Source: a virus
Taxonomy: Duplodnaviria; Heunggongvirae; Uroviricota; Caudoviricetes
Strand: one strand, 5' to 3'
IMG/VR virus record: IMGVR_UViG_2585427737_000015
DNA: 31,306 nucleotides
Of the stretch, positions 8,357 to 31,306 are shown one piece after another (positions within the stretch are counted from its first letter, which is position 1; the number at the start of each line of letters is the position of its first letter). The translations under genes were made by a program, and so were the position numbers. Under the pieces are notes generated by a model. It had not been told where the DNA came from. It saw only the letters and a list, made by a program, of their open reading frames with translations, and did no database searches.

Positions 8357-8831
8357 CTGTCCTGATTTGTACTCACTCATTTTCCGCCTGACAATTTACA
8401 TAGCCCAAATGCTATCAAATCTGACAGTCTGCTTTGAGCGAAGAGCGGACTTGAGACTATTGTAAATGAAAACCATATAATTTTAACCGGCAGAAACACA
8501 TGAGTAATTTTAAGGCTAATTAGTTATCTGGGAGATGAGGGGCAAAGCACGATATCGTACACCAATGGAATAAGCTTATGATTAATATAAATATAAAAGG
8601 CAGAAAGCCTTCCTCAAAATGGCTTGAATCGGGTGCATCTGTCTGCGAAACGATTTTTTAGACGTTTTTATCGCTTTCAGTTCAGTTTTCCCCTCGAATC
8701 CAAGTGACAAAGCCGATTTAGTTTTCACACATCCGTACAATGTGCATCCCTCGATGAGCCTTTTCAGGCAAAGTTACGGGGATGCTTGATTCATTTAAAC
8801 TGAGTTAGTACAACTTAATTAATAATATCAT

Positions 8832-9824
8832 TTATGCTAGAGTTGAATATTCTCCATTTCCTCGGTCGGTGAGTGTTAATTCGCGGCCATTTTCTGTAAA
8901 TGTAATGGCATCCAGCAGGCTTTTTCCTGTTACAGCTATACCATATCCAAGGTTATCAATCTTTGAACTGTCCTCAGATGATATTGGTATTTGTACAAGC
9001 ATACCAACAACAAAGCCGTATTTGTTAATTATAGGGCCACCGCTATTCCCCCCCTTAACCCTAGCATTGAATAATAAAAAGTCTTGTGAATCTAAGTAAG
9101 AGTGACCAGAACCAACAATTCGCCCCTTTGACAGTCGGACAAACGAATTTATATGCGAAACGTCATATAACTTTAATGCATCAAATCCTGGAATGGGTGG
9201 AAATCCTATTGATAAAATTTCATCCAGTACCGAGGCTTTGGTTGAGACCTTAAGTGGTTGAATATTATCTTCATTCGGAATGGTTGTGAAAACTAAAGCG
9301 ATATCAATACGTTCATCGTTAGATACAAAGATTTTATGTATTGGTAAAGCCTCACCACCAGCTCTAAGTATCCTGATACTCTTCATGTCTTCAATAACAT
9401 GTCTGGCTGTAAATATCGTGTGGTTATTCCCAACAATAAAACTAGTACCAAGATCATGTGAACCATCACTTTTTTCAACAACAACAGGTAAAACGGAAGG
9501 ACTAAGGCGGTCTATGATTGACTCAAATCCATCAGCTATAAAATCATACTTTCCATATTTCGCATCTGATTCATTGAAATTCGGTGCGAAATAGCAACGG
9601 TCCAAAAGAGTATGTCCTGAAGATAATTCCATTAAAATACCTTCAGTTGCTAGCTTTTCACAATTGCGTATTAACTTCATCATATCGAGAGTATTTTCCC
9701 ACTCAGGTTTGAGACGGGTCAGGCTCTCAATTGTTTTTCTCTCTTTTACGTTATCGTTTTCCGGTTTGTCATAAAAATATTTCACTATTTCTGTTGGTGT
9801 TACATATGTTTTTTTTATAGTCAT
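8832..9824 (-). CDS. Cargo gene at the P2 Z/fun locus: N-terminal domain of unknown function fused to a trypsin-like (chymotrypsin-fold, S1/Trypsin_2-type) serine protease domain; 330 aa from ATG, 348 aa if the upstream GTG is used
   Basis: ORF 8832..9878. Motifs GTSFIVGNNHTIFTARHV (His160), ERIDIALVF (Asp192), VKGGNSGGPI (Ser279), track numbering, with triad spacing typical of DegP-like proteases. No Shine-Dalgarno before the GTG at 9878; a weak one before the ATG at 9824. AT-rich relative to the flanking phage genes. Confidence 0.7.
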   Translation of the reverse strand: MTIKKTYVTPTEIVKYFYDKPENDNVKERKTIESLTRLKPEWENTLDMMKLIRNCEKLATEGILMELSSGHTLLDRCYFAPNFNESDAKYGKYDFIADGFESIIDRLSPSVLPVVVEKSDGSHDLGTSFIVGNNHTIFTARHVIEDMKSIRILRAGGEALPIHKIFVSNDERIDIALVFTTIPNEDNIQPLKVSTKASVLDEILSIGFPPIPGFDALKLYDVSHINSFVRLSKGRIVGSGHSYLDSQDFLLFNARVKGGNSGGPIINKYGFVVGMLVQIPISSEDSSKIDNLGYGIAVTGKSLLDAITFTENGRELTLTDRGNGEYSTLA

Positions 9825-10217
9825 TTTTGTACCCGCGATGACGTTATTCCATATATTTTTCTTTGTAGAAAATATCACTATTGCTGGTAAATGTTAAGTT
9901 CAGTGCTCGCACTAAAGCTGGATGATCAACGTCGCCCTCGTATGGAAATCAGGTAAGATTCATGTCTACTTGGGGTCTAGGGTAGACAGCATAAAAACGT
10001 ACGATAGCGTTCGATTGGCTCTCCCCCCCGCCTATAAACCATGAGGTTGATAGGGTAGTATCGTTAGGCAATAGTATACATGTAAGTATCCAACCTAATT
10101 GGTCTTGAGATTTCTAACTAACGTGTCGTTATGTCCGCTCCTGGCACAGAGCGGACTGTCAGATTAGGCTTTACTCTGTTCTATAGGTATGTAAGCTCAC
10201 ACAAGAGTTCATACAAC

Positions 10218-13008: not shown

Positions 13009-13539
13009 TTATCCGGGGTAAACCGTAATTACATCGCCGTCGTAAGCCACACCACCGGCGAACAGATAGCCGGGAATGTCCCGGGTAATGTTCAGACCAA
13101 TAAGGTGACGGCTTGCAGGTTTGGCATCAGCAATCAGCCGTTCCATTTCCTGATACATTGCCTCTGTGATACCGCTTTCCAGTACACCAATATCGAGCCG
13201 GAAGGTGCCGGGCGGGTCACTGTTTTCCCACCACTCCGTCACGTTGATGAGATAGCCGAGCGGCTCCACCACACGTCGGATTGCACCTATCGTGCCCTTA
13301 TGACAGTGGATGAAATAGGCATCGCGGATAACGGCGCGTTTTGTCGCTTCCGGCCACTTTTCATCCCACCTGTCGACCGAAAACGCCCACGCCAGCCACG
13401 GCAGCAGATTTGGCGGGCAGGTGTCCGGGTTCCACAGCTCACGAATACTGACCGGCGTTTTTTCAATTTCCGCACAGGCTTTCGCGGCAGCGACTTCAAG
13501 CGGTGATGAGCCGGTCGGCAGCAGGCGCGAATCACTCAT
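13009..13539 (-). CDS. I: Baseplate protein gpI (176 aa)
   Basis: ORF track; P2 length and order. Confidence 0.85.
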   Translation of the reverse strand: MSDSRLLPTGSSPLEVAAAKACAEIEKTPVSIRELWNPDTCPPNLLPWLAWAFSVDRWDEKWPEATKRAVIRDAYFIHCHKGTIGAIRRVVEPLGYLINVTEWWENSDPPGTFRLDIGVLESGITEAMYQEMERLIADAKPASRHLIGLNITRDIPGYLFAGGVAYDGDVITVYPG

Positions 13540-14440
13540 CCGAGCCTCCGGTCACGACGCGGTATTCGGTGCAGAAAGACGCCTGCGTACTGTTGAGCAC
13601 GATGTCGGCCAGTGGTGCAGCCAGTTCGACACGCTGCACGCCTTCCACATGCAAGGCGGCATAAATGGCAGACAGACGGATGTCGCGCCCCAGCCGGTGC
13701 TGTGCCGTGATGTACGCTTCCAGTTTTTTCACGGCGGCAGCGCGAATGGGTTCGCTTTCGGGGCCAGGGTAAAGGTAAAGCGTGGCATTTATCTGGTATT
13801 CAACGATGGCGGCAGACTGCACGGTCACACGGTCGGCCACCGGTCTGACGTCCTCGCCATTCAGGGCGTTGCGCACCACAGCCAGCAGGTCTTCAGATGC
13901 CACACCGTTATTTTCACGTGACAGCACAGAGATGGTGACACAGGCCGGAGACGGACTGGTGACAGAGATATCCGCGACACGCCCGTCGGCACTGCGACCA
14001 TGATACTGATAGGCTCCCACCGACCCGGCGACGCTTAAGCCTTCAAACGCCTGCTGAATACGCAGACGATAATCGGTGTCAGACTCCATCACTGCCGGTG
14101 TCGGCGGGATAGTCGAATCATCTGCCGGGGTGATAGTCAGGCGCGTGGTGTTGTAATTGGCACCAATCACATCAAGGTCATTACCGGCTGCCCAGGCCAG
14201 CATCACCGCCCGTGCAGCCTCATTCACACGCTGACGCCAGATAAGCTCGCGATACGCATTTTCCTCCAGCAGTTTGACGAGAGGCTCGGATTCCAGCGTC
14301 AGGGTACGGGCGACCGCCTCCTGCTGATCTTCCGGGTAAAGGGAAATCAGTGTCGCCTTGCGTTCAGCGAGAATGCTTTCAAAGTCCAGCTCCTCGACCA
14401 CATCCGGTGCGGGTAGCTGGTTCAGGTCGATAATCGGCAT
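13532..14440 (-). CDS. J: Baseplate wedge protein gpJ (302 aa)
   Basis: ORF track; P2 length and order; overlaps I by 8 nt. Confidence 0.85.
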   Translation of the reverse strand: MPIIDLNQLPAPDVVEELDFESILAERKATLISLYPEDQQEAVARTLTLESEPLVKLLEENAYRELIWRQRVNEAARAVMLAWAAGNDLDVIGANYNTTRLTITPADDSTIPPTPAVMESDTDYRLRIQQAFEGLSVAGSVGAYQYHGRSADGRVADISVTSPSPACVTISVLSRENNGVASEDLLAVVRNALNGEDVRPVADRVTVQSAAIVEYQINATLYLYPGPESEPIRAAAVKKLEAYITAQHRLGRDIRLSAIYAALHVEGVQRVELAAPLADIVLNSTQASFCTEYRVVTGGSDE

Positions 14441-15424: not shown

Positions 15425-15507
15425 GCGTGTGAGATTGCACAATATATAAAAGTTATGCTATCTGGATTCATTTGTAGAACTACCAGACAACATTCAAGGA
15501 GAGCGTA

Positions 15508-16293
15508 ATGGTCAGCTATAATGTGACTAATGTGTGGGGGCTAATCGTTTTTTTCCTTTGTAGCTTTGCAGTATTAGCATTTTTTAGCTTTGGTAAAAGT
15601 AACCTTATGAGGCTTATTGCACATTATTTCAATTTTGGATATTCAGACAAAAAATTAAAAAGACTTGACCGCGAGTGGCGCGACATTCAACTATTTAAAA
15701 TAATTAACGGAATCAATGTATCAGGCATTGAAAATGTGAGAATGATACAGCAGGGACTGATTGATGGAAAACTAAAAACATCGTATTTTTTCCTTACTCG
15801 CATCTGGGGTGACATAACAAAACCACCACACATAATTAAAACAACAATTGTAATTCTGGCCAGTATTATTTATATTCTCTTCGCATGTTATATACACAAC
15901 AAACAATCCGCTATAGTAAGAGATGCCATAGGCATACCATATAAAAATATGATGTACTATGTTTATAGTGACAAAGTTCTTTTATCCTTCAAAAATAAAG
16001 CAGTTGAATTTAATAAAACTTATAGCCTTGCCGATTGCAAGAGACTGCAAAACGTATTTATAAAAGACACACTTCCTGAAATCGCCTGCAATAAGCTCTT
16101 ACAGCTAAACGAGGAGGACTCCGAATGGTTAAGCCAGGAGATTAAAGATAATAACAGTCACAAAAAAGCATTATTAATACTATCCCTCGTCTATTTCACT
16201 TCAGGTCTGGTTATATTCCTGTCATATACAAAATTCTTTTACGCCAATAAGAAGGTTTTAGAATACAAAGCATCAAATAAAAATCACTCATAA
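15508..16293 (+). CDS. Cargo gene at the P2 orf30 locus: AT-rich predicted integral membrane protein (261 aa, about 3 transmembrane segments), function unknown
   Basis: ORF track; Shine-Dalgarno AGGAG 8 nt before the ATG; hydrophobic stretches at about residues 9-29, 113-133 and 221-241; opposite strand to the flanking late genes; low G+C by eye. Confidence 0.65.
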   Translation: MVSYNVTNVWGLIVFFLCSFAVLAFFSFGKSNLMRLIAHYFNFGYSDKKLKRLDREWRDIQLFKIINGINVSGIENVRMIQQGLIDGKLKTSYFFLTRIWGDITKPPHIIKTTIVILASIIYILFACYIHNKQSAIVRDAIGIPYKNMMYYVYSDKVLLSFKNKAVEFNKTYSLADCKRLQNVFIKDTLPEIACNKLLQLNEEDSEWLSQEIKDNNSHKKALLILSLVYFTSGLVIFLSYTKFFYANKKVLEYKASNKNHS

Positions 16294-16301
16294 ACCTCTA
16301 A

Positions 16302-16332
16302 ACATTGAGCGCCCAGCATGGCCGCTCAATGT
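16302..16332. terminator. Hairpin between convergent genes (cargo membrane protein and S), probable bidirectional terminator
   Basis: Perfect 10-bp stem ACATTGAGCG / CGCTCAATGT (16302-16311 and 16323-16332) with an 11-nt loop; followed by a T-containing tract on the plus side. Confidence 0.45.
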
Positions 16333-16364
16333 TTAATTGCGCATCAGCCTCTGCCTGGATAAAA

Positions 16365-22565: not shown

Positions 22566-22738
22566 TGTCAGGAGTCCTGAATAGTGATTAGAGGAGTCAC
22601 ATGTCGGCATCAGTTTCCCGACGATGCGCATCCTCCGCCATCAGTCCCGGATGGCTTATCACTGACACAACAGCACCTTAGCGAATCGCGGGGCGCGACT
22701 CAGTAGCCTTGCCGTGTATTCATCACGGCGAGGTATTC
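22566..22738. promoter_or_regulatory. Divergent late-promoter region (P_O leftward, P_P rightward) by synteny
   Basis: Intergenic space between divergently oriented O and P, as in P2. I could not find exact Ogr-type TGT-N12-ACA dyads by eye, so this is positional inference only. Confidence 0.35.
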
Positions 22739-24511
22739 ATGACCATCACCACAGACACCACTCTTTTACACGACCCGCGTCGTCAGGCGGCGCTGCTGTA
22801 CTGGCAGGGATTTTCCGTGCCGCAGATTGCCGCCATGTTGCAGATGAAACGCCCGACGGTGCAGAGCTGGAAACAGCGCGACGGCTGGGACAGCGTTGCC
22901 CCCATCAGCCGTGTCGAAATGAGCCTGGAAGCGCGGCTGACCCAGCTCATCATCAAACCGCAGAAAACCGGCGGTGACTTCAAGGAAATTGACCTGCTGG
23001 GACGCCAGATTGAACGACTGGCACGGGTAAATCGCTACAGCCAGACCGGCAACGAGGCAGACCTTAATCCGAACGTCGCTAACCGCAACAAAGGCGGGCG
23101 TCGCAAACCGAAAAAGAATTTTTTCAGTGACGAAGCCATCGAAAAGCTGGAGCAGATTTTCTTTGAGCAGTCTTTCGACTATCAGTTGCACTGGTATCGC
23201 GCCGGGCTTGAGCACCGCATCCGCGATATCCTGAAATCCCGCCAGATTGGCGCGACGTTTTATTTTTCCCGCGAGGCGCTGCTGCGCGCCCTGAAAACCG
23301 GCCATAACCAGATTTTTCTGTCGGCCAGTAAAACGCAGGCGTATGTGTTCCGTGAATACATCATCGCCTTTGCCCGGCTGGTTGACGTTGACCTGACCGG
23401 TGACCCGATTGTCCTGGGCAATAACGGCGCAAAACTGATTTTTCTCGGCACCAACTCCAACACCGCGCAGAGCCATAACGGCGACCTGTACGTCGATGAG
23501 ATTTTCTGGATCCCGAATTTTCAGGTACTGCGTAAGGTGGCATCAGGTATGGCCTCACAGAGTCACCTGCGCTCGACCTATTTCTCCACCCCGTCCACGC
23601 TGGCGCACGACGCCTACCCGTTCTGGTCGGGTGAACTGTTCAACCGGGGACGCGCCAGCGCCGCCGAACGCGTGGAAATCGACGTCAGTCATAACGCCCT
23701 TGCCGGAGGTCTTCTCTGTGCGGACGGCCAGTGGCGGCAGATTGTCACCATTGAGGACGCCCTGAAAGGTGGCTGCACGCTGTTCGACATTGAGCAGCTC
23801 AAACGTGAAAACAGCGCCGACGATTTTAAAAACCTGTTCATGTGTGAATTTGTTGACGACAAGGCGTCAGTGTTCCCGTTCGAGGAGCTGCAACGCTGCA
23901 TGGTCGACACGCTGGAAGAATGGGAAGACTATGCGCCGTTTGCCGCCAATCCGTTCGGCTCCCGCCCGGTATGGATTGGTTACGACCCGTCACACCGTGG
24001 CGACAGCGCCGGATGCGTGGTGCTGGCACCGCCGGTGGTGGCCGGTGGCAAATTCAGAATACTTGAGCGTCACCAGTGGAAAGGCATGGATTTTGCCACT
24101 CAGGCGGAATCCATCCGCAAACTCACCGAAAAATACAACGTCGAATACATCGGTATTGATGCCACCGGCCTCGGTGTCGGCGTGTTCCAGCTCGTGCGCT
24201 CGTTCTATCCCGCCGCGCGCGATATCCGCTACACGCCGGAAATGAAAACCGCAATGGTGCTCAAGGCAAAAGACGTTATTCGCCGTGGCTGTCTGGAATA
24301 CGACGTCAGCGCCACCGACATCACCAGCTCGTTTATGGCTATCCGCAAGACCATGACCAGCAGCGGACGCAGCGCCACCTATGAGGCCAGCCGCAGCGAG
24401 GAAGCCAGCCACGCCGACCTCGCATGGGCGACCATGCACGCTCTGTTAAATGAGCCACTCACCGCCGGTATCAGCACCCCGCTGACATCCACCATTCTGG
24501 AGTTTTACTGA
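22739..24511 (+). CDS. P: Terminase ATPase (large) subunit gpP (590 aa)
   Basis: ORF 22709..24511; start placed at MTITTDTTLLHDPRRQAALLYWQG to give the 590-aa P2 length. Confidence 0.88.
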   Translation: MTITTDTTLLHDPRRQAALLYWQGFSVPQIAAMLQMKRPTVQSWKQRDGWDSVAPISRVEMSLEARLTQLIIKPQKTGGDFKEIDLLGRQIERLARVNRYSQTGNEADLNPNVANRNKGGRRKPKKNFFSDEAIEKLEQIFFEQSFDYQLHWYRAGLEHRIRDILKSRQIGATFYFSREALLRALKTGHNQIFLSASKTQAYVFREYIIAFARLVDVDLTGDPIVLGNNGAKLIFLGTNSNTAQSHNGDLYVDEIFWIPNFQVLRKVASGMASQSHLRSTYFSTPSTLAHDAYPFWSGELFNRGRASAAERVEIDVSHNALAGGLLCADGQWRQIVTIEDALKGGCTLFDIEQLKRENSADDFKNLFMCEFVDDKASVFPFEELQRCMVDTLEEWEDYAPFAANPFGSRPVWIGYDPSHRGDSAGCVVLAPPVVAGGKFRILERHQWKGMDFATQAESIRKLTEKYNVEYIGIDATGLGVGVFQLVRSFYPAARDIRYTPEMKTAMVLKAKDVIRRGCLEYDVSATDITSSFMAIRKTMTSSGRSATYEASRSEEASHADLAWATMHALLNEPLTAGISTPLTSTILEFY

Positions 24512-25545
24512 TGAGCAAGAAAAAAGGGAAAACACCGCAACCTGCGGCAAAAACAATGACCGCCAGCGCCCCGAAAATGGAAGCATTCACCTTTGGTGAG
24601 CCGGTGCCGGTACTCGACCGCCGTGACATTCTGGATTACGTCGAGTGCATCAGTAACGGCAGATGGTATGAGCCACCGATCAGCTTTACCGGTCTGGCAA
24701 AAAGCCTGCGTGCTGCCGTGCATCACAGCTCACCGATTTACGTTAAACGCAATATTCTGGCCTCGACATTTATCCCGCATCCGTGGCTTTCCCAGCAGGA
24801 TTTCAGCCGCTTTGTGCTGGATTTTCTGGTGTTCGGTAATGCGTTTCTGGAAAAGCGTTACAGTACCACCGGTAAGGTCATCAGACTGGAAACCTCACCG
24901 GCAAAATATCCCCGCCGTGGCGTGGAGGAGGATGTTTACTGGTGGGTGCCGTCCTTCAACGAGCCGACACCTTTCACGCCCGGCTCCGTGTTTCATCTGC
25001 TGGAGCCGGATATTAATCAGGAGCTGTACGGCCTGCCGGAATATCTCAGCGCCCTTAACTCTGCCTGGCTGAATGAGTCAGCCACGCTGTTCCGCCGCAA
25101 GTATTACGAAAACGGCGCACATGCCGGATACATCATGTACGTCACTGATGCCGTGCAGGATCGCAACGATATCGAAATGCTCCGCGAAAACATGGTGAAG
25201 TCGAAAGGCCGCAACAACTTTAAAAATCTGTTTCTCTATGCCCCGCAAGGGAAAGCCGACGGCATTAAAATTATCCCGCTCAGTGAAGTGGCAACGAAGG
25301 ACGATTTTTTTAATATCAAAAAAGCCAGCGCCGCAGACCTGCTGGACGCGCACCGCATCCCTTTTCAGTTGATGGGCGGCAAGCCGGAGAACGTCGGGTC
25401 GCTGGGTGATATTGAGAAAGTGGCAAAGGTCTTTGTCCGCAATGAGCTTATCCCGTTACAGGACAGGATCCGCGAGATAAACGGCTGGCTCGGTCAGGAG
25501 GTCATCCGCTTTAAAAACTACTCACTGGACACTGACAACGGCTGA
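24511..25545 (+). CDS. Q: Portal protein gpQ (344 aa)
   Basis: ORF track; P2 length; TGATG overlap with the P stop. Confidence 0.88.
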   Translation: MSKKKGKTPQPAAKTMTASAPKMEAFTFGEPVPVLDRRDILDYVECISNGRWYEPPISFTGLAKSLRAAVHHSSPIYVKRNILASTFIPHPWLSQQDFSRFVLDFLVFGNAFLEKRYSTTGKVIRLETSPAKYPRRGVEEDVYWWVPSFNEPTPFTPGSVFHLLEPDINQELYGLPEYLSALNSAWLNESATLFRRKYYENGAHAGYIMYVTDAVQDRNDIEMLRENMVKSKGRNNFKNLFLYAPQGKADGIKIIPLSEVATKDDFFNIKKASAADLLDAHRIPFQLMGGKPENVGSLGDIEKVAKVFVRNELIPLQDRIREINGWLGQEVIRFKNYSLDTDNG

Positions 25546-25714: not shown

Positions 25715-25733
25715 GTGCTTTCCCCGCCTCGCC
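25715..25733. other. cos site (19-nt cohesive-end sequence), internal to the prophage
   Basis: GTGCTTTCCCCGCCTCGCC is the reverse complement of the P2 cohesive end GGCGAGGCGGGGAAAGCAC as I recall it; correctly placed just beyond Q. Confidence 0.75.
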
Positions 25734-26048
25734 CGCCCGCTTCATGGGGCGGTTTTAATGCAGTTGCATGATGAAACTGAAATCACATCAGCACTGACCG
25801 AAACTGACAAAAAGAATAGTATCTGACACATGCAAAAACACGCACTTAATATACGCCTATCTATAGCTCCTACAGGATTGTCAAAAAACGACCAACTCGT
25901 CATAGCGTAAACACATTTGGCTCAACGAACACTTACGTTATATGCCTCTTGCACATATCAAAGTCTTAAGGTAGATCTTTACCACTAAGTGGCTATATTA
26001 AGCTGCTTTTTTACATACAATAAAAGCTTTATCGTATGAGGCATAAAA

Positions 26049-28265
26049 ATGGAACTTAGATTAAAAAATGTTACCAGTTATAAGAAAGACGCCTTCACAA
26101 TACTGAATCTTGAAAAAAGAGTAAACATACTATACGGCCAAAATGGTTGTGGCAAATCTACCATTTCAAATTATTTCTACGACTCTACACACACAGATTA
26201 TAACGAGTGTGAATGTACCCTTCTTGACAATTACAAACCTCTTGTTTACAACACTAAATTTATTGAAGATAATTTCTACAATGCACAGGAACAAAAAGGT
26301 GTTTTTACATTAAGTAAAGAAAATGCAGATATTGAAAAACAATTAATTAAAAAAGAAGCAATTAAACAGCAACTTACAGAGCAATATAGACAAAAAAAAG
26401 GAGTGTTATTGAAATTAGAAGCAGAAATGGAAAAAAAAGAAAATGAATACATCGAATCGATCTGGAAAAAAACAGAACCAATCAGAAACTCTGTACTAAA
26501 AATCTTAATGAAAGGTAAAGTTGGCTATAAAAGACCTTTTTTTGAGATGATAAAATCATCCTCACCAATCACCTTTATTAATTTAAATGATATAGCAAAA
26601 GAATACTCTATACTATTAGAAAATAGAAACAATGAAACCGCATTAATAACTCCTTTACACCCATATACCCCATCAATTGATGATGTAAATACATTAGCAA
26701 CACCTATAATAGATACAAGCAATAGCTATTTATCAGAAACCATTAATAAACTTCATAATCTTGACTGGGTAAAAAAAGGTAAAGAACATTATTTAGACGG
26801 TTCTACATGTCCGTTTTGTCAGGAAAAAACTATTAGTCGCGAATTTTTAAATGCCCTTAAATCAATATTTGACGAAAGTTATTCAAAGAAAGTAAAACAG
26901 CTCTCAGATATAAAGTCAGTTTATGAGAAAAATACCATATATCATTTTAACGAAATACAAAACAATATATCATCATGTGCACTAATCAATGAGAAAGATA
27001 AAGAGATCATTATTTCCAATATTAAAATATTGCAAAACATTGCAGAAAAAAATTTAATAAACATTATTGATAAGATCAACAATCCATCAACATGCGTTAC
27101 ATTAGAAATTGATAAAGAACTAGAAAATCATGTTCAGGAAAGCATAGACGCTGTTAACAAAAAAATAAGAGACATAAATGATAAGGTTAAAAAACTCAAA
27201 GAGTATGAGAATAAAATCGGAAAACAAGTTTGGGGGGCTCTCCATGCTTTTTGCAGCGATGATTTAGAGAATTTATCCAAACACAAAGAAAAATTCTTTG
27301 ATATCAAAAAGAAAGTTCATGATGAATTAAATAATATTGAGCAACAAGGAAAAGAAAATAATCTCACAATAAAAGCATTGCGAGATAAAATATCTAACAT
27401 TGATTCTACGATAGACTCAATAAACACCCATTTAAAAAATCTAGGGATCTCTGGTTTTTGTATTGAAAAACATGCAGAAAGAAAAGATATGTACATTATA
27501 TCTCGACCAGGGCATACAAAAAACCAAAATGTTTATAGATCTCTTAGCGAAGGTGAAAAAACACTAATAACGTTTCTTTATTTTTTAGAGTGCTGTAAAG
27601 GTAAAACCGATAAAAATGATACCGATAGCAGGGATATTTTTATTGTTATTGACGATCCAATATCTAGTCTATCGCAAAACTATGTCTACGACATCGCATC
27701 AATTATTCATCACCACATTATAAAAAATGAATTAACAAAGAAGGTATTAATCCTTACTCACAATCTTTATTTCTTTCATGAACTTATTAAGCTATCTCCT
27801 AAAAGCAGAGAAGACAAACTATTTAAGAAAAACTATTATCTAGGTAGAGTAACGAAAAATGATTTTAGTATAATTACTGAAATACAAAAAAACAGCATAC
27901 AGAATGAATATCAATCTTTGTGGCAAATATTAAAAGATGCAAAAGATGGCAAAGCAAACAAAATCATAATACCTAATATTATGAGAAACATACTAGAATA
28001 TTATTTTGCATTTGTTCATAGAACAGATGCTCTACAAGATGAATTAACAAAGTTGGCACGCGACGATAGCAACAGTGATTTCAAAGCATTCTACAGATAC
28101 ATTAACAGAGGTTCTCACTCTGATGCGGTAAATATTACTGATATGGGCGACATAGACCCAGATAAATACCTAAAACAATTGAGAACAATATTTTCAGCTA
28201 CTGGTGACGAAATGCATTATTTAAAAATGATGGACGAACTAGAAGAGGAGAACGTTACCGCTTAG
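26049..28265 (+). CDS. Cargo gene at the P2 tin/old locus: 738-aa ABC/SMC-type ATPase with coiled-coil insert and CxxC zinc-hook-like motif plus a C-terminal putative nuclease domain; RloC/PrrC-like (AAA_13-type) candidate anticodon nuclease
   Basis: ORF track; Shine-Dalgarno GAGG before the ATG. Walker A ILYGQNGCGKST (aa 27-38), CPFCQ (aa 254-258) within Lys/Glu-rich coiled-coil sequence, signature-like LSEGEK (499-504), Walker B IFIVIDDP (530-537), LTHN (569-572), and C-terminal R646-x3-E650 ... H690 resembling the PrrC Arg-Glu-His triad. Strongly AT-rich by eye. Confidence 0.6.
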   Translation: MELRLKNVTSYKKDAFTILNLEKRVNILYGQNGCGKSTISNYFYDSTHTDYNECECTLLDNYKPLVYNTKFIEDNFYNAQEQKGVFTLSKENADIEKQLIKKEAIKQQLTEQYRQKKGVLLKLEAEMEKKENEYIESIWKKTEPIRNSVLKILMKGKVGYKRPFFEMIKSSSPITFINLNDIAKEYSILLENRNNETALITPLHPYTPSIDDVNTLATPIIDTSNSYLSETINKLHNLDWVKKGKEHYLDGSTCPFCQEKTISREFLNALKSIFDESYSKKVKQLSDIKSVYEKNTIYHFNEIQNNISSCALINEKDKEIIISNIKILQNIAEKNLINIIDKINNPSTCVTLEIDKELENHVQESIDAVNKKIRDINDKVKKLKEYENKIGKQVWGALHAFCSDDLENLSKHKEKFFDIKKKVHDELNNIEQQGKENNLTIKALRDKISNIDSTIDSINTHLKNLGISGFCIEKHAERKDMYIISRPGHTKNQNVYRSLSEGEKTLITFLYFLECCKGKTDKNDTDSRDIFIVIDDPISSLSQNYVYDIASIIHHHIIKNELTKKVLILTHNLYFFHELIKLSPKSREDKLFKKNYYLGRVTKNDFSIITEIQKNSIQNEYQSLWQILKDAKDGKANKIIIPNIMRNILEYYFAFVHRTDALQDELTKLARDDSNSDFKAFYRYINRGSHSDAVNITDMGDIDPDKYLKQLRTIFSATGDEMHYLKMMDELEEENVTA

Positions 28266-28514
28266 GCCGCATATTATCGTTTTGGGTAAGAACGACGGTG
28301 CTTACGCACCGTCTCCCAACGCCCAAAGCGGTAGCGGTTGTACTGGCGTACATTCACTAGCTTTAACATGAGGCAATCTCCATGCCAGCACTATTGTTGC
28401 CAATAGCAGCCTTTATACCCTTTGTACAAAGCTAATACCAAGAGTAATGCAAAGTAGATGTCCCAAGCGGTAACGGGGCTATTCTATGTCAAACACAGAA
28501 ATAATCAAAGCGCC

Positions 28515-29345
28515 CTATGAATCCCCCCAACCATCAGCGACCGGATACGTGAATTTTTTCCCGTCATAATTTACGGTCGCTCTACGCGCCAGCGCCTCAA
28601 GCTCCCATCGCTGCGGCCTGATACCGTTCTGAGCAAGGTCAACGCGGATACGGGTGATTTGCAATCGTTCAGACCTGGTCAGTCTGGCAGATGGTGCAAT
28701 TTCATGCGGTTTTAACGGGCTTCCGTTTCTTTGCTGACGGTTTGGCGTTCTCAGGTCGTATTTTAATGCGCCCCTGAGCGCCCTCACGACCTCCGGTTCA
28801 TTCCATTCAATAACACCGTCATCAACCAGATTAAGCACTGCTGCGGCGTGCTCAGAAGGTGTGGGAGCCGGTAACGAAGTATCACCACCGGTGAGCTTTC
28901 CACAGTTATTGACAGGACTCCGAGGCGCGGCGATGCCGCTTTTTAAAGTCAAGGGCTCAACGACCGGAACTTTCGGCACAATGCGCCAGTCCGTCGTTCT
29001 GGTGATATGAATATGACGCGCGCCGAGATGCGGCGCGTAAATGCCGACCACTCTCTCGACTTCTTCCTCATACTCGTTAACGTCATCCGACGGGCTACGG
29101 GCGACCCTGACAGTCTGACAATCGCGCGGGACATTTGCCCCACCCTGCGCGCTGATATACAACGCAAAATCACCACTGTCTGCGGCGGCGCGTGCAGCCT
29201 CGACGCGCTCGTCAAACTCATCAGCAATGCTGACGCCGCGAGGCAATTTGCGTAGTTCACGGTAAGCCCCCATTGTCGGCAGACCAACCGTTTTAAATTG
29301 CGGGATGCGCCACGTTGACGCCCATGCGGTAACAGCCGCGGCAGT
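28515..29345 (-). pseudogene. A: C-terminal fragment (about 277 codons) of replication initiation gene A, truncated at its 5' side by the IS element
   Basis: ORF 28515..29360 (...TAAAVTAWASTWRIPQFKTVGLPTMGAYRELRKL...) reads as the C-terminal part of P2 gpA (about 761 aa in P2). No Shine-Dalgarno at the track start; in-frame stop at 29370-29372; the upstream sequence is IS-derived. Junction placed at about 29345, plus or minus 10. Confidence 0.6.
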
Positions 29346-29421
29346 GTTGCGTATTTTCATGAAAGGAGATCACTCAATAACTTCCATCGAGATCGGGTAA
29401 TAACATTTGAACAGATCGCTG

Positions 29422-29485
29422 AATAACATCGATGGAGATCACTTTTGACTCATTTTGTTATTCAGTGATCTCCATCAATGTTATT
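29422..29485. repeat. 22-bp inverted repeats (AATAACATCGATGGAGATCACT at 29422-29443 and its inverse at 29464-29485, one mismatch) with a 20-nt spacer, in the IS left-end region
   Basis: Seen directly; a third degenerate copy at about 29374-29395. Consistent with multiple terminal transposase-binding repeats of IS21-family elements. Confidence 0.5.
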
Positions 29486-29540
29486 GGAACTTCACAGGTG
29501 TGTTGATCTGTATCTTTTGCCATTCCGGTAAAGGATACCT

Positions 29541-31082
29541 ATGCCAACAGTTCCAATTTCTATGAGAAAACTTAAAGAAATTCTTAGGCTTAAATACGGT
29601 GTTGGACTCAGCCATCGACAAATTGGTCGTAGTCTTGCAATCTCCCCTTCCGTTGTATCCAGATATGCTAATCGGGCGGCTCAACTTGGCATAAAGCAGT
29701 GGCCCTTACCTACAGGATGGGATGATACAAAACTAAAACATGCGTTCCTTCAGACCCAGGTTAAGATGAAGAAGCACTCTCTGCCTGACTGGGCTACAGT
29801 ACACCGGGAACTGCGTAATAAATGCGTGACGCTGCAGCTACTCTGGGAAGAATACTGTGAGCGTAATCCAGGCGGTTTTTACAGCTATAACCATTACTGC
29901 CGGATGTACCGTGAATGGCTCAAAACCACTTCACCATCAATGCGTCAGGTACATAAAGCTGGCGAAAAACTTTTCGTTGATTACTGTGGACCTACCGTTG
30001 GCGTTACCGACCCTGAGACCGGAGAAATAAGAACTGCTCAGGTCATCGTAGCTGTTCTCGGGGCATCAAGTTACACATGGGCAGAGGCCACCTGGTCTCA
30101 GCAGCTTGAAGACTGGGTGATGAGTCATGTTCGCTGCTTCCAGTGGTTGGGTGGCGTTCCTGAACTTGTTGTTCCGGACAATCTGAAAAGCGCCACATCC
30201 AGGGCATGTAAGTATGATCCTGACGTTAACCCTACCTACCAGCAGATGCTTGAGCATTATAATGTCGCAGTTTTGCCTGCGCGGCCACGTAAACCGAAAG
30301 ATAAAGCCAAAGCTGAAGTTGGCGTTCAGGTTGTTGAACGCTGGATCATGGCCCGAATCAGGCATGAGATCTTCTACAGCCTTGCATCGCTTAATCAGCG
30401 CATTCGGGAGTTGCTGGAAAGACTGAATAACAAAATAATGCAGAAGTTGGGTTATTCACGTGCAGAACTCTTCATCCAGCTTGATAAACCCGCACTGAAG
30501 CCTCTTCCTGAAGCCAGTTACAGTTACACCCTGGTGAAGAAAGTCAGAGTTCATGCCGATTACCACGTGGAAATCGACAAACATTACTACTCGGTTCCAT
30601 GTTCGCTGTTAGGCCAGCAACTGGAAGCATGGATCTCCGGAGAACTGGTAAGACTCTTCAATCAGGGGCAGGAGGTTGCTGTGCACCCGCGCAAGCGTAC
30701 TTATGGCTACAGTACCCGCAACGAGCACATGCCTGAAGCTCATCGACAGCATGCCACCTGGACGCCAGAGCGTCTTCTGGAATGGGCGGGGCACATAGGC
30801 AGTGAAACTCATAGTTATGTGCTTCATATACTGAACTCTCGTCCACATCCGGAACAAAGCTATCGCTTCTGCCTTGGACTCCTGAACCTTCATAAAAAAT
30901 ACAGTAAAGCCAGACTTAATGCAGCATGTGCAAGAGCTCTGAAAACAAAGGTATGGCGTCTGTCAGGTATTAAATCGATCCTGGAAAAAGGTCTGGATAA
31001 ACAACCTGTTCAGGATCCAAAACCAGATCTGTTATCCACGATGGAACACGAAAACGTACGCGGCAGTGAGTATTACCACTGA
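29541..31082 (+). CDS. istA: IS21-family transposase IstA (513 aa)
   Basis: ORF track; N-terminal helix-turn-helix region, DDE-type core; Shine-Dalgarno AAGGA 7 nt upstream; followed 11 nt later by istB. Confidence 0.8.
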   Translation: MPTVPISMRKLKEILRLKYGVGLSHRQIGRSLAISPSVVSRYANRAAQLGIKQWPLPTGWDDTKLKHAFLQTQVKMKKHSLPDWATVHRELRNKCVTLQLLWEEYCERNPGGFYSYNHYCRMYREWLKTTSPSMRQVHKAGEKLFVDYCGPTVGVTDPETGEIRTAQVIVAVLGASSYTWAEATWSQQLEDWVMSHVRCFQWLGGVPELVVPDNLKSATSRACKYDPDVNPTYQQMLEHYNVAVLPARPRKPKDKAKAEVGVQVVERWIMARIRHEIFYSLASLNQRIRELLERLNNKIMQKLGYSRAELFIQLDKPALKPLPEASYSYTLVKKVRVHADYHVEIDKHYYSVPCSLLGQQLEAWISGELVRLFNQGQEVAVHPRKRTYGYSTRNEHMPEAHRQHATWTPERLLEWAGHIGSETHSYVLHILNSRPHPEQSYRFCLGLLNLHKKYSKARLNAACARALKTKVWRLSGIKSILEKGLDKQPVQDPKPDLLSTMEHENVRGSEYYH

Positions 31083-31093
31083 TACGGGATCCA

Positions 31094-31306
31094 ATGATGA
31101 ATCATCTTTACGAACAACTGACCGCACTTAAACTCACCGGCTTCCGTGATGCGCTTAAAAAGCAACTTGCTCAACCGGGCACATACCAGGAGCTGGGCTT
31201 CGAAGAACGCCTGTCATTACTGACAGCAGAAGAACTAACCTGCCGTGAAAACAGGAAGGCAGAGCGTCTGATCAAACATGCACGGTTCAGACTTAATGCT
31301 GAGTTA
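31094..31306 (+). CDS. istB: IS21-family helper ATPase IstB, 5' partial (first 71 codons, runs off the window)
   Basis: Hand translation MMNHLYEQLTALKLTGFRDALKKQLAQPGTYQELGFEERLSLLTAEELTCRENRKAERL..., a typical IstB N-terminus; no stop before the window end. Confidence 0.65.
   Translation, partial: MMNHLYEQLTALKLTGFRDALKKQLAQPGTYQELGFEERLSLLTAEELTCRENRKAERLIKHARFRLNAEL

What the first reader, a model, noticed from the sequence alone, without database searches (positions are those of the whole stretch)
25734..28514. tin/old hotspot carries a 738-aa RloC/PrrC-like ATPase with zinc-hook motif and putative anticodon-nuclease triad
The AT-rich single gene combines an ABC/SMC-type ATPase head (Walker A aa 30-38, signature LSEGEK, Walker B DDP, H-loop LTHN) split by coiled-coil sequence with a CPFC motif at aa 254-257, and a roughly 150-aa C-terminal domain with R646-x3-E650 and H690, reminiscent of the PrrC/RloC Arg-Glu-His triad. 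No type I R-M partner is adjacent, so it looks like a stand-alone RloC-type tRNase. The family assignment relies on remembered motifs, not on an alignment.
Basis: partly seen in the sequence, partly recalled or inferred. Interest (0 to 1): 0.75.

Follow-up and report, generated by a model that had tools for sequence, protein, structure and literature searches.

The report
RloC-like tRNA nuclease in P2 prophage hotspot

Summary
One 738-aa ORF (26049..28265, +; 29.5% GC against 51% for the window) fills the variable slot between the P2 cos site (25715..25733) and the 3' end of gpA. Every motif sits at the stated residue.

It is not new. Rousset et al. 2022 list "AAA_13, RloC-like" as the fifth commonest P2-hotspot system (420 occurrences) and list the protein annotated at the matching locus of another E. 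coli genome (99.4% DNA identity). E. coli APEC O1 has a 99%-identical copy at the same spot, probably the APECO1_4465 prototype of 2013.

I found no test of tRNA cleavage or phage defence for this clade. Interest is low to moderate.

The parts
25715..25733 (-). P2 cos site (19-nt cohesive end). It marks the left edge of the hotspot.
   Evidence: Exact match to GGCGAGGCGGGGAAAGCAC. It aligns with cosR of phage P2 AF063097.
25763..28518 (+). Variable cargo module of the P2 tin/old hotspot. It replaces P2 orf91-tin-old.
   Evidence: Homology to P2 stops at 25762 and resumes at 28519. It forms a low-GC island. The same module lies between portal Q and gpA in intact prophages (L001; APEC O1).
25823..25852 (+). 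Candidate sigma-70-like promoter (CTGACA-18-TAATAT). This is a weak consensus match only.
   Evidence: 9 of 12 positions; the count of such sites is not above the shuffled expectation. The position is analogous to the cos-proximal old-tin promoter of P2. Inferred.
25987..26008 (+). Terminator-like hairpin followed by a T-run, 40 nt upstream of the start codon. Its role is unknown.
26038..26041 (+). Shine-Dalgarno-like GAGG, 7 nt before the ATG.
   Evidence: Read from the sequence.
26049..28265 (+). CDS of the 738-aa RloC-like protein (AAA_13 / PDC-S06 / phrog_2801).
   Evidence: It is 99% identical to cluster P0001 (449 members) and to APEC O1 WP_000423308.
26049..26315 (+). ATPase head, N-lobe (aa 1-89), with Walker A G30-T38.
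   Evidence: G30, G35 and K36 are invariant. The model shows beta strands and a helix with pLDDT around 90.
26316..27440 (+). Helical (coiled-coil-type) insert, aa 90-464. The long outgoing helix is aa 90-141 and the returning helix is aa 403-464.
   Evidence: AlphaFold secondary structure. The best Foldseek matches are Rad50 and SMC heads with coiled coil.
26808..26819 (+). CPFC (aa 254-257), the putative zinc hook, in a loop between helices 238-248 and 264-273.
   Evidence: It is the only CxxC in the protein. C254 and C257 are invariant, and P255/F256/Q258 are at least 90% conserved. Secondary structure.
27441..27833 (+). ATPase head, C-lobe (aa 465-595): signature LSEGEK 499-504, Walker B/D-loop DDP 535-537, H-loop H571.
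27834..28262 (+). C-terminal all-helical nuclease-type domain (aa 596-738). Candidate active-site residues are R646, N647, E650, R683, N686, S689 and H690. Y621, N643 and H723 are also invariant.
28515..29360 (-). 3' remnant of the replication endonuclease gene gpA (281 codons). It is the right border of the hotspot and is truncated by an IS.
   Evidence: 98% identical to P2 gpA up to 29347. The intact gene is seen in L001.
29345..31306 (+). IS21-family element ISEc12 (istA 29541..31082) inserted in gpA. It runs off the end of the window. It is context, not part of the system.
   Evidence: 99.85% identical to ISEc12 of APEC O1. Pfam rve + Mu-transpos_C_2.

Best explanation
The gene encodes a stand-alone member of the RloC branch of the PrrC/RloC ABC-ATPase-HEPN anticodon nucleases. 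It is carried as the only cargo of the cos-proximal defence hotspot of a P2-like prophage.

The proposed working is as follows.
1. The lysogen makes a low level of the protein from a cargo-borne promoter next to cos, as P2 does for old-tin (inferred).
2. Two protomers join through the CPFC zinc hook at the tip of the helical insert. The Rad50-like heads keep the C-terminal nuclease latent (inferred from G. kaustophilus RloC, where hook mutations activate the nuclease).
3. DNA ends or other aberrant DNA produced during infection, together with ATP binding and hydrolysis by the head, switch the protein on (inferred from the DNA-dependent ATPase and double-strand-break activation of RloC).
4. The C-domain active site (R646, N647, E650, R683, N686, H690) cuts tRNA anticodon loops, perhaps excising the wobble nucleotide. 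Translation stops and the infection is aborted, which protects the lysogenic population and the prophage (inferred).

Shown here: the architecture, the motif conservation, the family assignment and the genomic position. Not shown: any biochemical activity or any phage phenotype.
For: Family: Pfam AAA_13 matches full length with E 6.7e-111. PADLOC PDC-S06 gives E 4.8e-254, and the PrrC model hits aa 490-730 with E 1e-12. Some homologues are named 'wobble nucleotide-excising tRNase' or 'translation-disabling ACNase' by their sources.

Motifs: all ATPase motifs, C254/C257, R646 and H723 are invariant, and E650/S689/H690 are at least 90% conserved, in 44 sequences down to 19% identity. R646-x3-E650-x39-S-H690 fits the published RloC rule R-x3-E-x36-52-(S)H (PMC2610378). 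R646-N647-x2-E650 and R683-x2-N686-x3-H690 reproduce the spacing of the essential EcoPrrC residues R320-N321-x2-E324 and R349-x2-N352-x3-H356 (PMC3025547).

Context: the gene takes the place and orientation of P2 old. About 5-6 of 35 relatives' loci in other phyla are embedded in type I R-M loci, the hallmark of 'restriction-linked orf' genes.

Mechanism by homology: PMC2610378, PMC3458546 and PMC3874168.
Against: No activity data exist for this clade in the literature I searched.

I could not align it directly with the experimentally studied RloC or PrrC proteins, because their sequences could not be retrieved.

H690 lies in a low-confidence loop of the model.

The position expected for PrrC His295 is an invariant Tyr (Y621). 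R683 is replaced in a distant subgroup.

Anantharaman et al. 2013 treat the prophage-borne APECO1_4465 group as distinct from RloC proper.

The trigger is unknown.
Confidence: 0.7

Rival explanations
1. The family is the same, but the target or the chemistry differs. The C-domain is an active RNase that cuts something other than the anticodon wobble position (other tRNA sites, mRNA or rRNA), or it only nicks, as PrrC does.
For: HEPN RNases have varied substrates (PMC3710099). This clade has its own invariant residues (Y621, N643, H723) and no equivalent of PrrC His295. The PrrC anticodon-recognition (LARP) motif is reported absent from RloC proteins.
Against: Six of the seven PrrC residues shown to be essential are present with identical spacing. 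Every characterised member of the PrrC/RloC group cuts anticodon loops.
Confidence: 0.15
2. The nuclease is PrrC-like in regulation. It is not autonomous but is held silent in trans by a host type I R-M enzyme, and it is released when a phage anti-restriction protein disables that enzyme.
For: Relatives are often embedded in hsdM-hsdS-hsdR loci. Davidov and Kaufmann proposed trans interaction with R-M enzymes.
Against: There is no R-M gene in the window or in the P2 hotspot. The module moves as a single gene among prophages. RloC has an internal switch and was activated in an R-M-deficient host.
Confidence: 0.1
3. It is a Rad50/SMC/LmuB-like DNA-sensing ATPase whose C-terminal domain is structural or regulatory rather than an RNase. 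It would act on DNA or through an unlinked effector.
For: The best fold matches are Rad50, SMC, Lamassu LmuB and AriA heads. There is a weak PADLOC LmuB hit (E 7e-10). Structural evidence for a HEPN fold is weak.
Against: No partner gene (Mre11/SbcD-, LmuA- or AriB-like) lies in the module. The C-domain carries the most strictly conserved polar residues outside the ATPase motifs, with PrrC spacing. A PrrC model covers this domain.
Confidence: 0.05
4. It is an inert passenger. The gene is silent or decaying in a replication-defective prophage and contributes nothing.
For: gpA is interrupted by ISEc12. The gene is very AT-rich, and silencing of AT-rich DNA would follow from general knowledge of E. 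coli (not tested here). A related E. coli allele is often found truncated.
Against: The ORF is intact, with every catalytic motif. It is 99% identical to copies in intact prophages. Its cluster has 449 member sequences.
Confidence: 0.05

Closest known systems
RloC (Geobacillus kaustophilus and Acinetobacter baylyi; Davidov & Kaufmann 2008, Klaiman et al. 2012 and 2014)
   Same: The order of parts is the same: ABC head, coiled-coil insert with a central CxxC, ABC signature / Walker B / H-loop, then a C-terminal domain with R-x3-E-x36-52-(S)H. Like most RloC genes it usually stands alone, and some family members lie inside type I R-M loci.
   Different: It is 738 aa against 804 aa. It is carried in a P2 prophage hotspot. 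It has an invariant Y621 and H723, and no His where PrrC/RloC His295 is expected. I obtained no direct alignment to the studied proteins. Its activity is untested.
Catalogue entries for this same protein: P2-hotspot system #5 'AAA_13, RloC-like' (Rousset et al. 2022, Table S5), PADLOC PDC-S06, phrog_2801, and the prophage-borne APECO1_4465 ABC-HEPN group (Anantharaman et al. 2013)
   Same: WP_001583661, the protein annotated at the matching locus of E. coli 09-00049 (L001, 99.4% DNA identity to the window module), is listed in Table S5A. The system #5 representative is collinear and 46% identical over its stored 399 aa. The PDC-S06 model matches with E 5e-254, and phrog_2801 matches full length. 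APEC O1 has a 99%-identical protein between gpA and Q.
   Different: Nothing differs structurally. All these entries are predictions. The system was not among those cloned by Rousset et al.: no AAA_13 entry occurs in Table S2, and the three validated P2 systems are different ones. The equation with the locus tag APECO1_4465 rests on my recollection of GI numbering and is unverified.
PrrC (E. coli anticodon nuclease)
   Same: It has the ABC motifs and the nuclease residues R-N-x2-E and R-x2-N-x3-H with identical spacing. The PADLOC PrrC model hits aa 490-730.
   Different: PrrC is about 400 aa, has no coiled-coil or zinc hook, and is always embedded in a type Ic R-M locus that silences it. None of this applies here.
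P2 Old (ABC ATPase + TOPRIM)
   Same: It occupies the same genomic slot and orientation next to cos. The logic is the same: an ABC-ATPase sensor fused to a nuclease. A 2026 preprint reports Old as an abortive tRNase triggered by DNA defects (10.64898/2026.07.10.737580).
   Different: The nuclease domain is unrelated: no TOPRIM match was found here, and the domain is of PrrC/HEPN type. The long helical insert with a zinc hook is absent from Old.
Rad50 / SbcC / SMC heads
   Same: These are the best structural matches for the head plus coiled coil. A CxxC hook sits in the insert.
   Different: There is no Mre11/SbcD partner, the insert is much shorter, and there is an extra C-terminal nuclease-type domain.

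Membership tests
RloC (definition of Davidov & Kaufmann 2008) | ABC-ATPase motifs: Walker A, signature, Walker B/D-loop and the linchpin His | tested here: met
   G30-T38, LSEGEK 499-504, DDP 535-537 and H571. All are invariant or nearly so in 44 homologues.
RloC (definition of Davidov & Kaufmann 2008) | Coiled-coil insert with a central CxxC zinc hook between Walker A and the signature motif | tested here: met
   The insert spans aa 90-464, with long helices 90-141 and 403-464 and CPFC 254-257 in a helix-loop-helix. C254 and C257 are invariant. Rad50 and SMC are the top fold hits. Zinc binding itself cannot be tested here.
RloC (definition of Davidov & Kaufmann 2008) | C-proximal Arg-x3-Glu-x36-52-His, often with Ser before His | tested here: met
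   R646-x3-E650-x39-S689-H690. R646 is conserved in 44/44, E650 in 41/44 (the other 3 are Asp), S689 in 42/44 and H690 in 41/44. The definition is quoted.
RloC (definition of Davidov & Kaufmann 2008) | Other nuclease residues shared by PrrC and RloC (equivalents of EcoPrrC His295, Arg349, Asn352) | tested here: inconclusive
   R683 and N686 are present with PrrC spacing (36/44 and 37/44). The position expected for His295 is an invariant Tyr (Y621), and aa 600-645 contain no His. The mapping is by spacing, not by alignment to PrrC.
RloC (definition of Davidov & Kaufmann 2008) | Significant sequence similarity to an experimentally characterised RloC (G. kaustophilus YP_146738 or A. baylyi) | not tested
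   These sequences did not appear or 84 and could not be fetched by name.
RloC (definition of Davidov & Kaufmann 2008) | Wobble-nucleotide-excising anticodon nuclease activity, DNA-dependent ATPase, Zn responsiveness | not testable with these tools
These are biochemical properties.
RloC (definition of Davidov & Kaufmann 2008) | Family members occasionally embedded in type I/III R-M loci ('restriction-linked orf') | tested here: met
   Among 118 neighbour ORFs from 35 loci, the commonest Pfam families are N6_Mtase (6), HSDR_N (5), Methylase_S (4) and HsdM_N (4). This is not the case at this locus.
PrrC | A compact ABC head of about 400 aa without a coiled-coil insert | tested here: not met
   The protein is 738 aa with a 375-aa helical insert. 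The PrrC model covers only aa 490-730.
PrrC | The gene is embedded in a type Ic R-M (hsd) locus that silences it | tested here: not met
   No R-M gene is in the window. The neighbours are cos/portal Q and gpA.
HEPN superfamily | Rx4-6H motif in an all-alpha domain | tested here: met
   R683-x6-H690 lies in a helical domain (helices 620-632, 638-655, 659-671, 676-686, 704-717, 721-727). R683 is not conserved in the most distant subgroup.
HEPN superfamily | Structural similarity of the domain to solved HEPN domains | tested here: inconclusive
Pfam AAA_13 / PADLOC PDC-S06 / phrog_2801 | Full-length profile match above the family threshold | tested here: met
   AAA_13 scores 372.6 bits against a cutoff of 36, over residues 17-716. 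PDC-S06 scores 843.5 bits over residues 2-730. phrog_2801 scores 1290 bits over residues 1-737.
OLD family (P2 Old) | ABC ATPase fused to a TOPRIM nuclease | tested here: not met
   No TOPRIM or OLD model appears among the Pfam or PADLOC hits. Only the genomic position is shared.
Rad50/SbcC | An adjacent Mre11/SbcD-type nuclease partner, and no fused nuclease domain | tested here: not met
   The cargo is a single gene, and it has an extra conserved C-terminal domain.

The most novel reading that the evidence does not exclude
The P2-hotspot clade (APECO1_4465 / PDC-S06 type) may be a separate lineage of ABC-HEPN nucleases rather than RloC proper. It would have a modified active site (invariant Y621, N643 and H723; no PrrC-His295 equivalent) and its own RNA target. 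It might also sense the same signal as the gene it replaces, P2 Old (DNA ends or hairpins when RecBCD is compromised). In that case this one prophage slot would swap convergent 'ABC sensor + tRNase' modules that carry unrelated nuclease folds.
Probability: 0.2. Interest if true: 0.55.

Novelty: already known. Interest (0 to 1): 0.25.

Why it matters
The papers I found list RloC as a defence system, but those that surveyed it marked it untested. None reported a direct anti-phage assay for it or for this clade. Its trigger, thought to be DNA breaks, is only partly understood.

A single-gene RloC-type module in the well-studied P2 lysogen system, present in about 0.8% of complete E. coli genomes (44 of 5426), is a convenient natural test case. 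Lysogen and deletion strains, hook mutants and triad mutants can all be compared directly. The result could also be set against P2 Old, which a 2026 preprint reports as a tRNase in the same slot.

The value lies in experimental tractability, not discovery. The gene and its likely role have been in published catalogues since 2013-2022.

Tried and rejected
1. NCBIfam gave no meaningful hit. A sequence search of the PDB found no solved relative.
2. I tried to reach the experimentally studied RloC and PrrC sequences through two homologue searches and a genome scan. None of the named proteins appeared, so no direct alignment was possible.
3. The afdb50 fold library, which might have held AlphaFold models of PrrC, was unavailable.
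4. Foldseek of the C-domain against the PDB gave only noise. I therefore do not claim structural proof of a HEPN fold.
5. tblastn with P2 portal, terminase, capsid and gpA against 80 relatives' loci from other species found a P2-type neighbour only in L038. Outside Enterobacterales the family is not generally carried by P2.
6. Synonymous and non-synonymous counts against two E. coli copies involve too few changes (12 nt each) to say anything about selection.
7. Promoter-like sites in the module are no more frequent than in shuffled sequence. The promoter assignment is only positional.
8. The supplement of the HEPN paper held as text has no alignments, so the link to APECO1_4465 could not be checked by sequence. 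I located the APEC O1 gene from my recollection of GI order instead.
9. I considered and rejected OLD-family, Rad50/SbcC, Lamassu LmuB and PARIS AriA membership. These share only ATPase-head similarity.
Full report
**What is at the coordinates.**
The interval holds one long ORF, 26049..28265 on the + strand, encoding 738 aa. Its GC content is 29.5%, against 50.9% for the window as a whole.

The window is the late-gene arm of a P2-like prophage. In order it contains:
- a host peptidase-U32 gene;
- ogr, gpD, and the tail, baseplate, lysis and capsid genes;
- terminase P (22709..24511) and portal Q (24511..25545).

An exact copy of the 19-nt P2 cohesive end lies at 25715..25733. Against phage P2 itself, homology covers only 25715..25762 (cosR) and then resumes at 28519 inside gpA. 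It replaces P2 orf91-tin-old. The ORF has the position and orientation of old, pointing away from cos towards gpA.

In an intact relative (E. coli 09-00049, L001) the same single gene lies between portal Q and the replication endonuclease gene. In the window, gpA is cut down to its last 281 codons by an IS21-family element. That element is 99.85% identical to ISEc12.

**The motifs.**
- Walker A at G30-T38;
- CPFC at 254-257, the only CxxC in the protein;
- LSEGEK at 499-504;
- DDP at 535-537;
- LTHN at 569-572;
- R646-x3-E650, and H690 preceded by S689.

**Family assignment.**
- Pfam AAA_13 matches residues 17-716 against model positions 11-713 of 713, with E 6.7e-111.
- PADLOC places the protein in the candidate single-gene system PDC-S06 (E 4.8e-254, full length). 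Its PrrC model matches aa 490-730 with E 1e-12.
- PHROGs has a full-length family, phrog_2801, of unknown function.
- NCBIfam and the PDB sequence set hold nothing related.
- Homologues occur across Enterobacterales and many other phyla. Some sources name them "wobble nucleotide-excising tRNase" or "translation-disabling ACNase".

I aligned 44 homologues spanning 66% to 19% identity.
- Invariant: G30, G35, K36, C254, C257, E501-G502-E503, D535-D536-P537, H571, Y621, N643, R646 and H723.
- At least 90% conserved: P255, F256, Q258, E650 (otherwise Asp), S689 and H690.

A profile of the C-terminal 143 residues alone finds 2056 clusters (50% identity level) among 1.84 billion representatives. Nearly all of the best 150 are proteins of 715-760 aa with the domain at the very C-terminus. 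The architecture is therefore stable.

**Comparison with the published definitions.**
Davidov and Kaufmann defined RloC by three features: ABC motifs, a coiled-coil/zinc-hook insert with CxxC, and a C-proximal Arg-x3-Glu-x36-52-His in which Ser often precedes His (PMC2610378). Here the motif is R646-x3-E650-x39-S689-H690.

Meineke and Shuman showed that His295, Arg320, Asn321, Glu324, Arg349, Asn352 and His356 are essential in E. coli PrrC (PMC3025547). The window protein has R646-N647-x2-E650 and R683-x2-N686-x3-H690. This gives six of the seven residues with identical internal spacing. R683-x6-H690 is also the Rx4-6H signature of HEPN RNases, the superfamily to which PrrC and RloC were assigned (PMC3710099).

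Two differences are visible. The position expected for His295 is an invariant Tyr (Y621). The clade also has an additional invariant His (H723).

**Structure.**
The AlphaFold model of the whole protein has mean pLDDT 82. It shows:
- a beta/alpha head built from aa 1-89 and 465-595;
- a long outgoing helix (aa 90-141) and a long returning helix (aa 403-464), with shorter helices between them;
- CPFC in the loop between helices 238-248 and 264-273.

Foldseek against the PDB returns Rad50 and SMC/cohesin/condensin heads with coiled coil, and more weakly retron Ec83, AriA, Septu PtuA and Lamassu LmuB.

**Context in other genomes.**
The full module is present in 44 of 5426 complete E. coli genomes, where it is annotated only as "AAA family ATPase".

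I took the two nearest ORFs on each side in 35 loci from other bacterial groups and scanned them against Pfam. The commonest neighbour families were type I R-M components: N6_Mtase 6, HSDR_N 5, Methylase_S 4, HsdM_N 4 and EcoEI_R_C 3. The proportion resembles the 8 of 72 reported for RloC and fits the "restriction-linked orf" history of the name. P2-type neighbours were found in only one of 80 loci. In the window no R-M gene is present.

**How it most likely works.**
By homology with G. kaustophilus and A. baylyi RloC, the protein would be a latent anticodon nuclease. In those proteins:
- hook mutations activate the nuclease;
- Zn inhibits the nuclease in the wild type but not in a hook mutant;
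- the ATPase is DNA-dependent;
- double-strand-break inducers switch the nuclease on, even without R-M (PMC2610378, PMC3458546, PMC3874168).

The model is that DNA ends or damage arising during infection, together with the ATPase cycle of the Rad50-like head, release the C-terminal nuclease. tRNA anticodon loops are then cut and translation stops, aborting the infection.

All of these steps are inferred for this protein. What I have shown is the architecture, the conservation of the relevant residues and the genomic setting.

A 2026 preprint reports that P2 Old, the gene this module replaces, is itself an ABC-ATPase-linked tRNase triggered by DNA defects. The slot may therefore exchange functionally analogous modules.

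**Prior knowledge.**
- Rousset et al. 2022 analysed exactly this hotspot.
- Their representative is collinear with the window protein and 46% identical over the 399 residues stored.
- Their Table S5A lists WP_001583661, the accession annotated at the matching locus in L001. That locus is 99.4% identical in DNA to the window module.
- The system was not among those they cloned.
- Anantharaman et al. 2013 described ABC-HEPN fusions "prototyped by APECO1_4465", frequent in integrated prophages.
- I located a P2-like prophage in E. coli APEC O1. It has a 738-aa AAA ATPase between gpA and Q that is 733/738 identical to the window protein.
- Its position fits the GI number given for APECO1_4465. That arithmetic relies on my memory of the record's GI and is unverified.
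- PADLOC's PDC-S06 and a 2025 language-model preprint also flag the family as a candidate defence.

I found no experimental test of defence or RNA cleavage for this clade. Two Streptococcus thermophilus surveys list RloC or PDC-S06 as detected but untested.

**Verdict.**
The finding is a correct annotation of a catalogued but uncharacterised defence candidate, not a discovery. The remaining interest lies in its small departures from PrrC/RloC at the active site, in the unknown trigger, and in its use as a tractable system for testing whether RloC-type nucleases really defend against phage.

Noticed in passing
window 29345..31306 (and gpA remnant 28515..29360, -): An IS21-family element, 99.85% identical to ISEc12 of E. 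coli APEC O1, interrupts the replication endonuclease gene gpA and leaves only its last 281 codons. The prophage is probably replication-defective.
   Followed up: yes
window 8450..10132 (ORF 8832..9878, -): This is a second low-GC island, at the position between the tail-fibre assembly gene and the tail sheath gene. It encodes a 348-aa trypsin-like peptidase (Trypsin_2, E 2e-17; phrog_18002). It gives weak PADLOC hits to the protease modules of RT-Protease_XI, LmuA and HamA. The otherwise 96-98% identical APEC O1 prophage carries an Sll1717-family P-loop ATPase there instead, so this may be another defence cargo.
   Followed up: partly
window 15425..16362 (ORF 15508..16293, +): This is a third low-GC insertion, absent from the APEC O1 prophage. 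It encodes a 261-aa protein with no Pfam or PADLOC hit and a full-length match to phrog_2407 (unknown function).
   Followed up: partly
protein cluster P0047 (E. coli, 546 aa, 1244 member sequences): The commonest E. coli relative of the target (53% identical) begins at the equivalent of residue 190, so it lacks Walker A. Rousset's Table S1 (P4-encoded loci) also lists a split 'AAA_13 + AAA_13' arrangement. The second allele of this system therefore seems to be disrupted often.
   Followed up: partly
L038 9989..12183 and 13062..13774 (Celerinatantimonas diazotrophica): The homologue here is split into two ORFs (327 + 338 aa) and lies next to a gpA-like gene. It is the only one of 80 non-enterobacterial loci with a P2-type neighbour.
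   Followed up: no
window 25987..26008: A terminator-like hairpin (8 pairs) followed by a T-run lies 40 nt upstream of the target's start codon, inside the presumed leader. It could be a regulatory element or a coincidence.
   Followed up: no
alignment A4, columns for residues 647, 683, 687: In the most distant subgroup of the family, N647 becomes Arg while R683 becomes Ser and R687 becomes Asp. This may be a compensatory shift of an active-site arginine.
   Followed up: no
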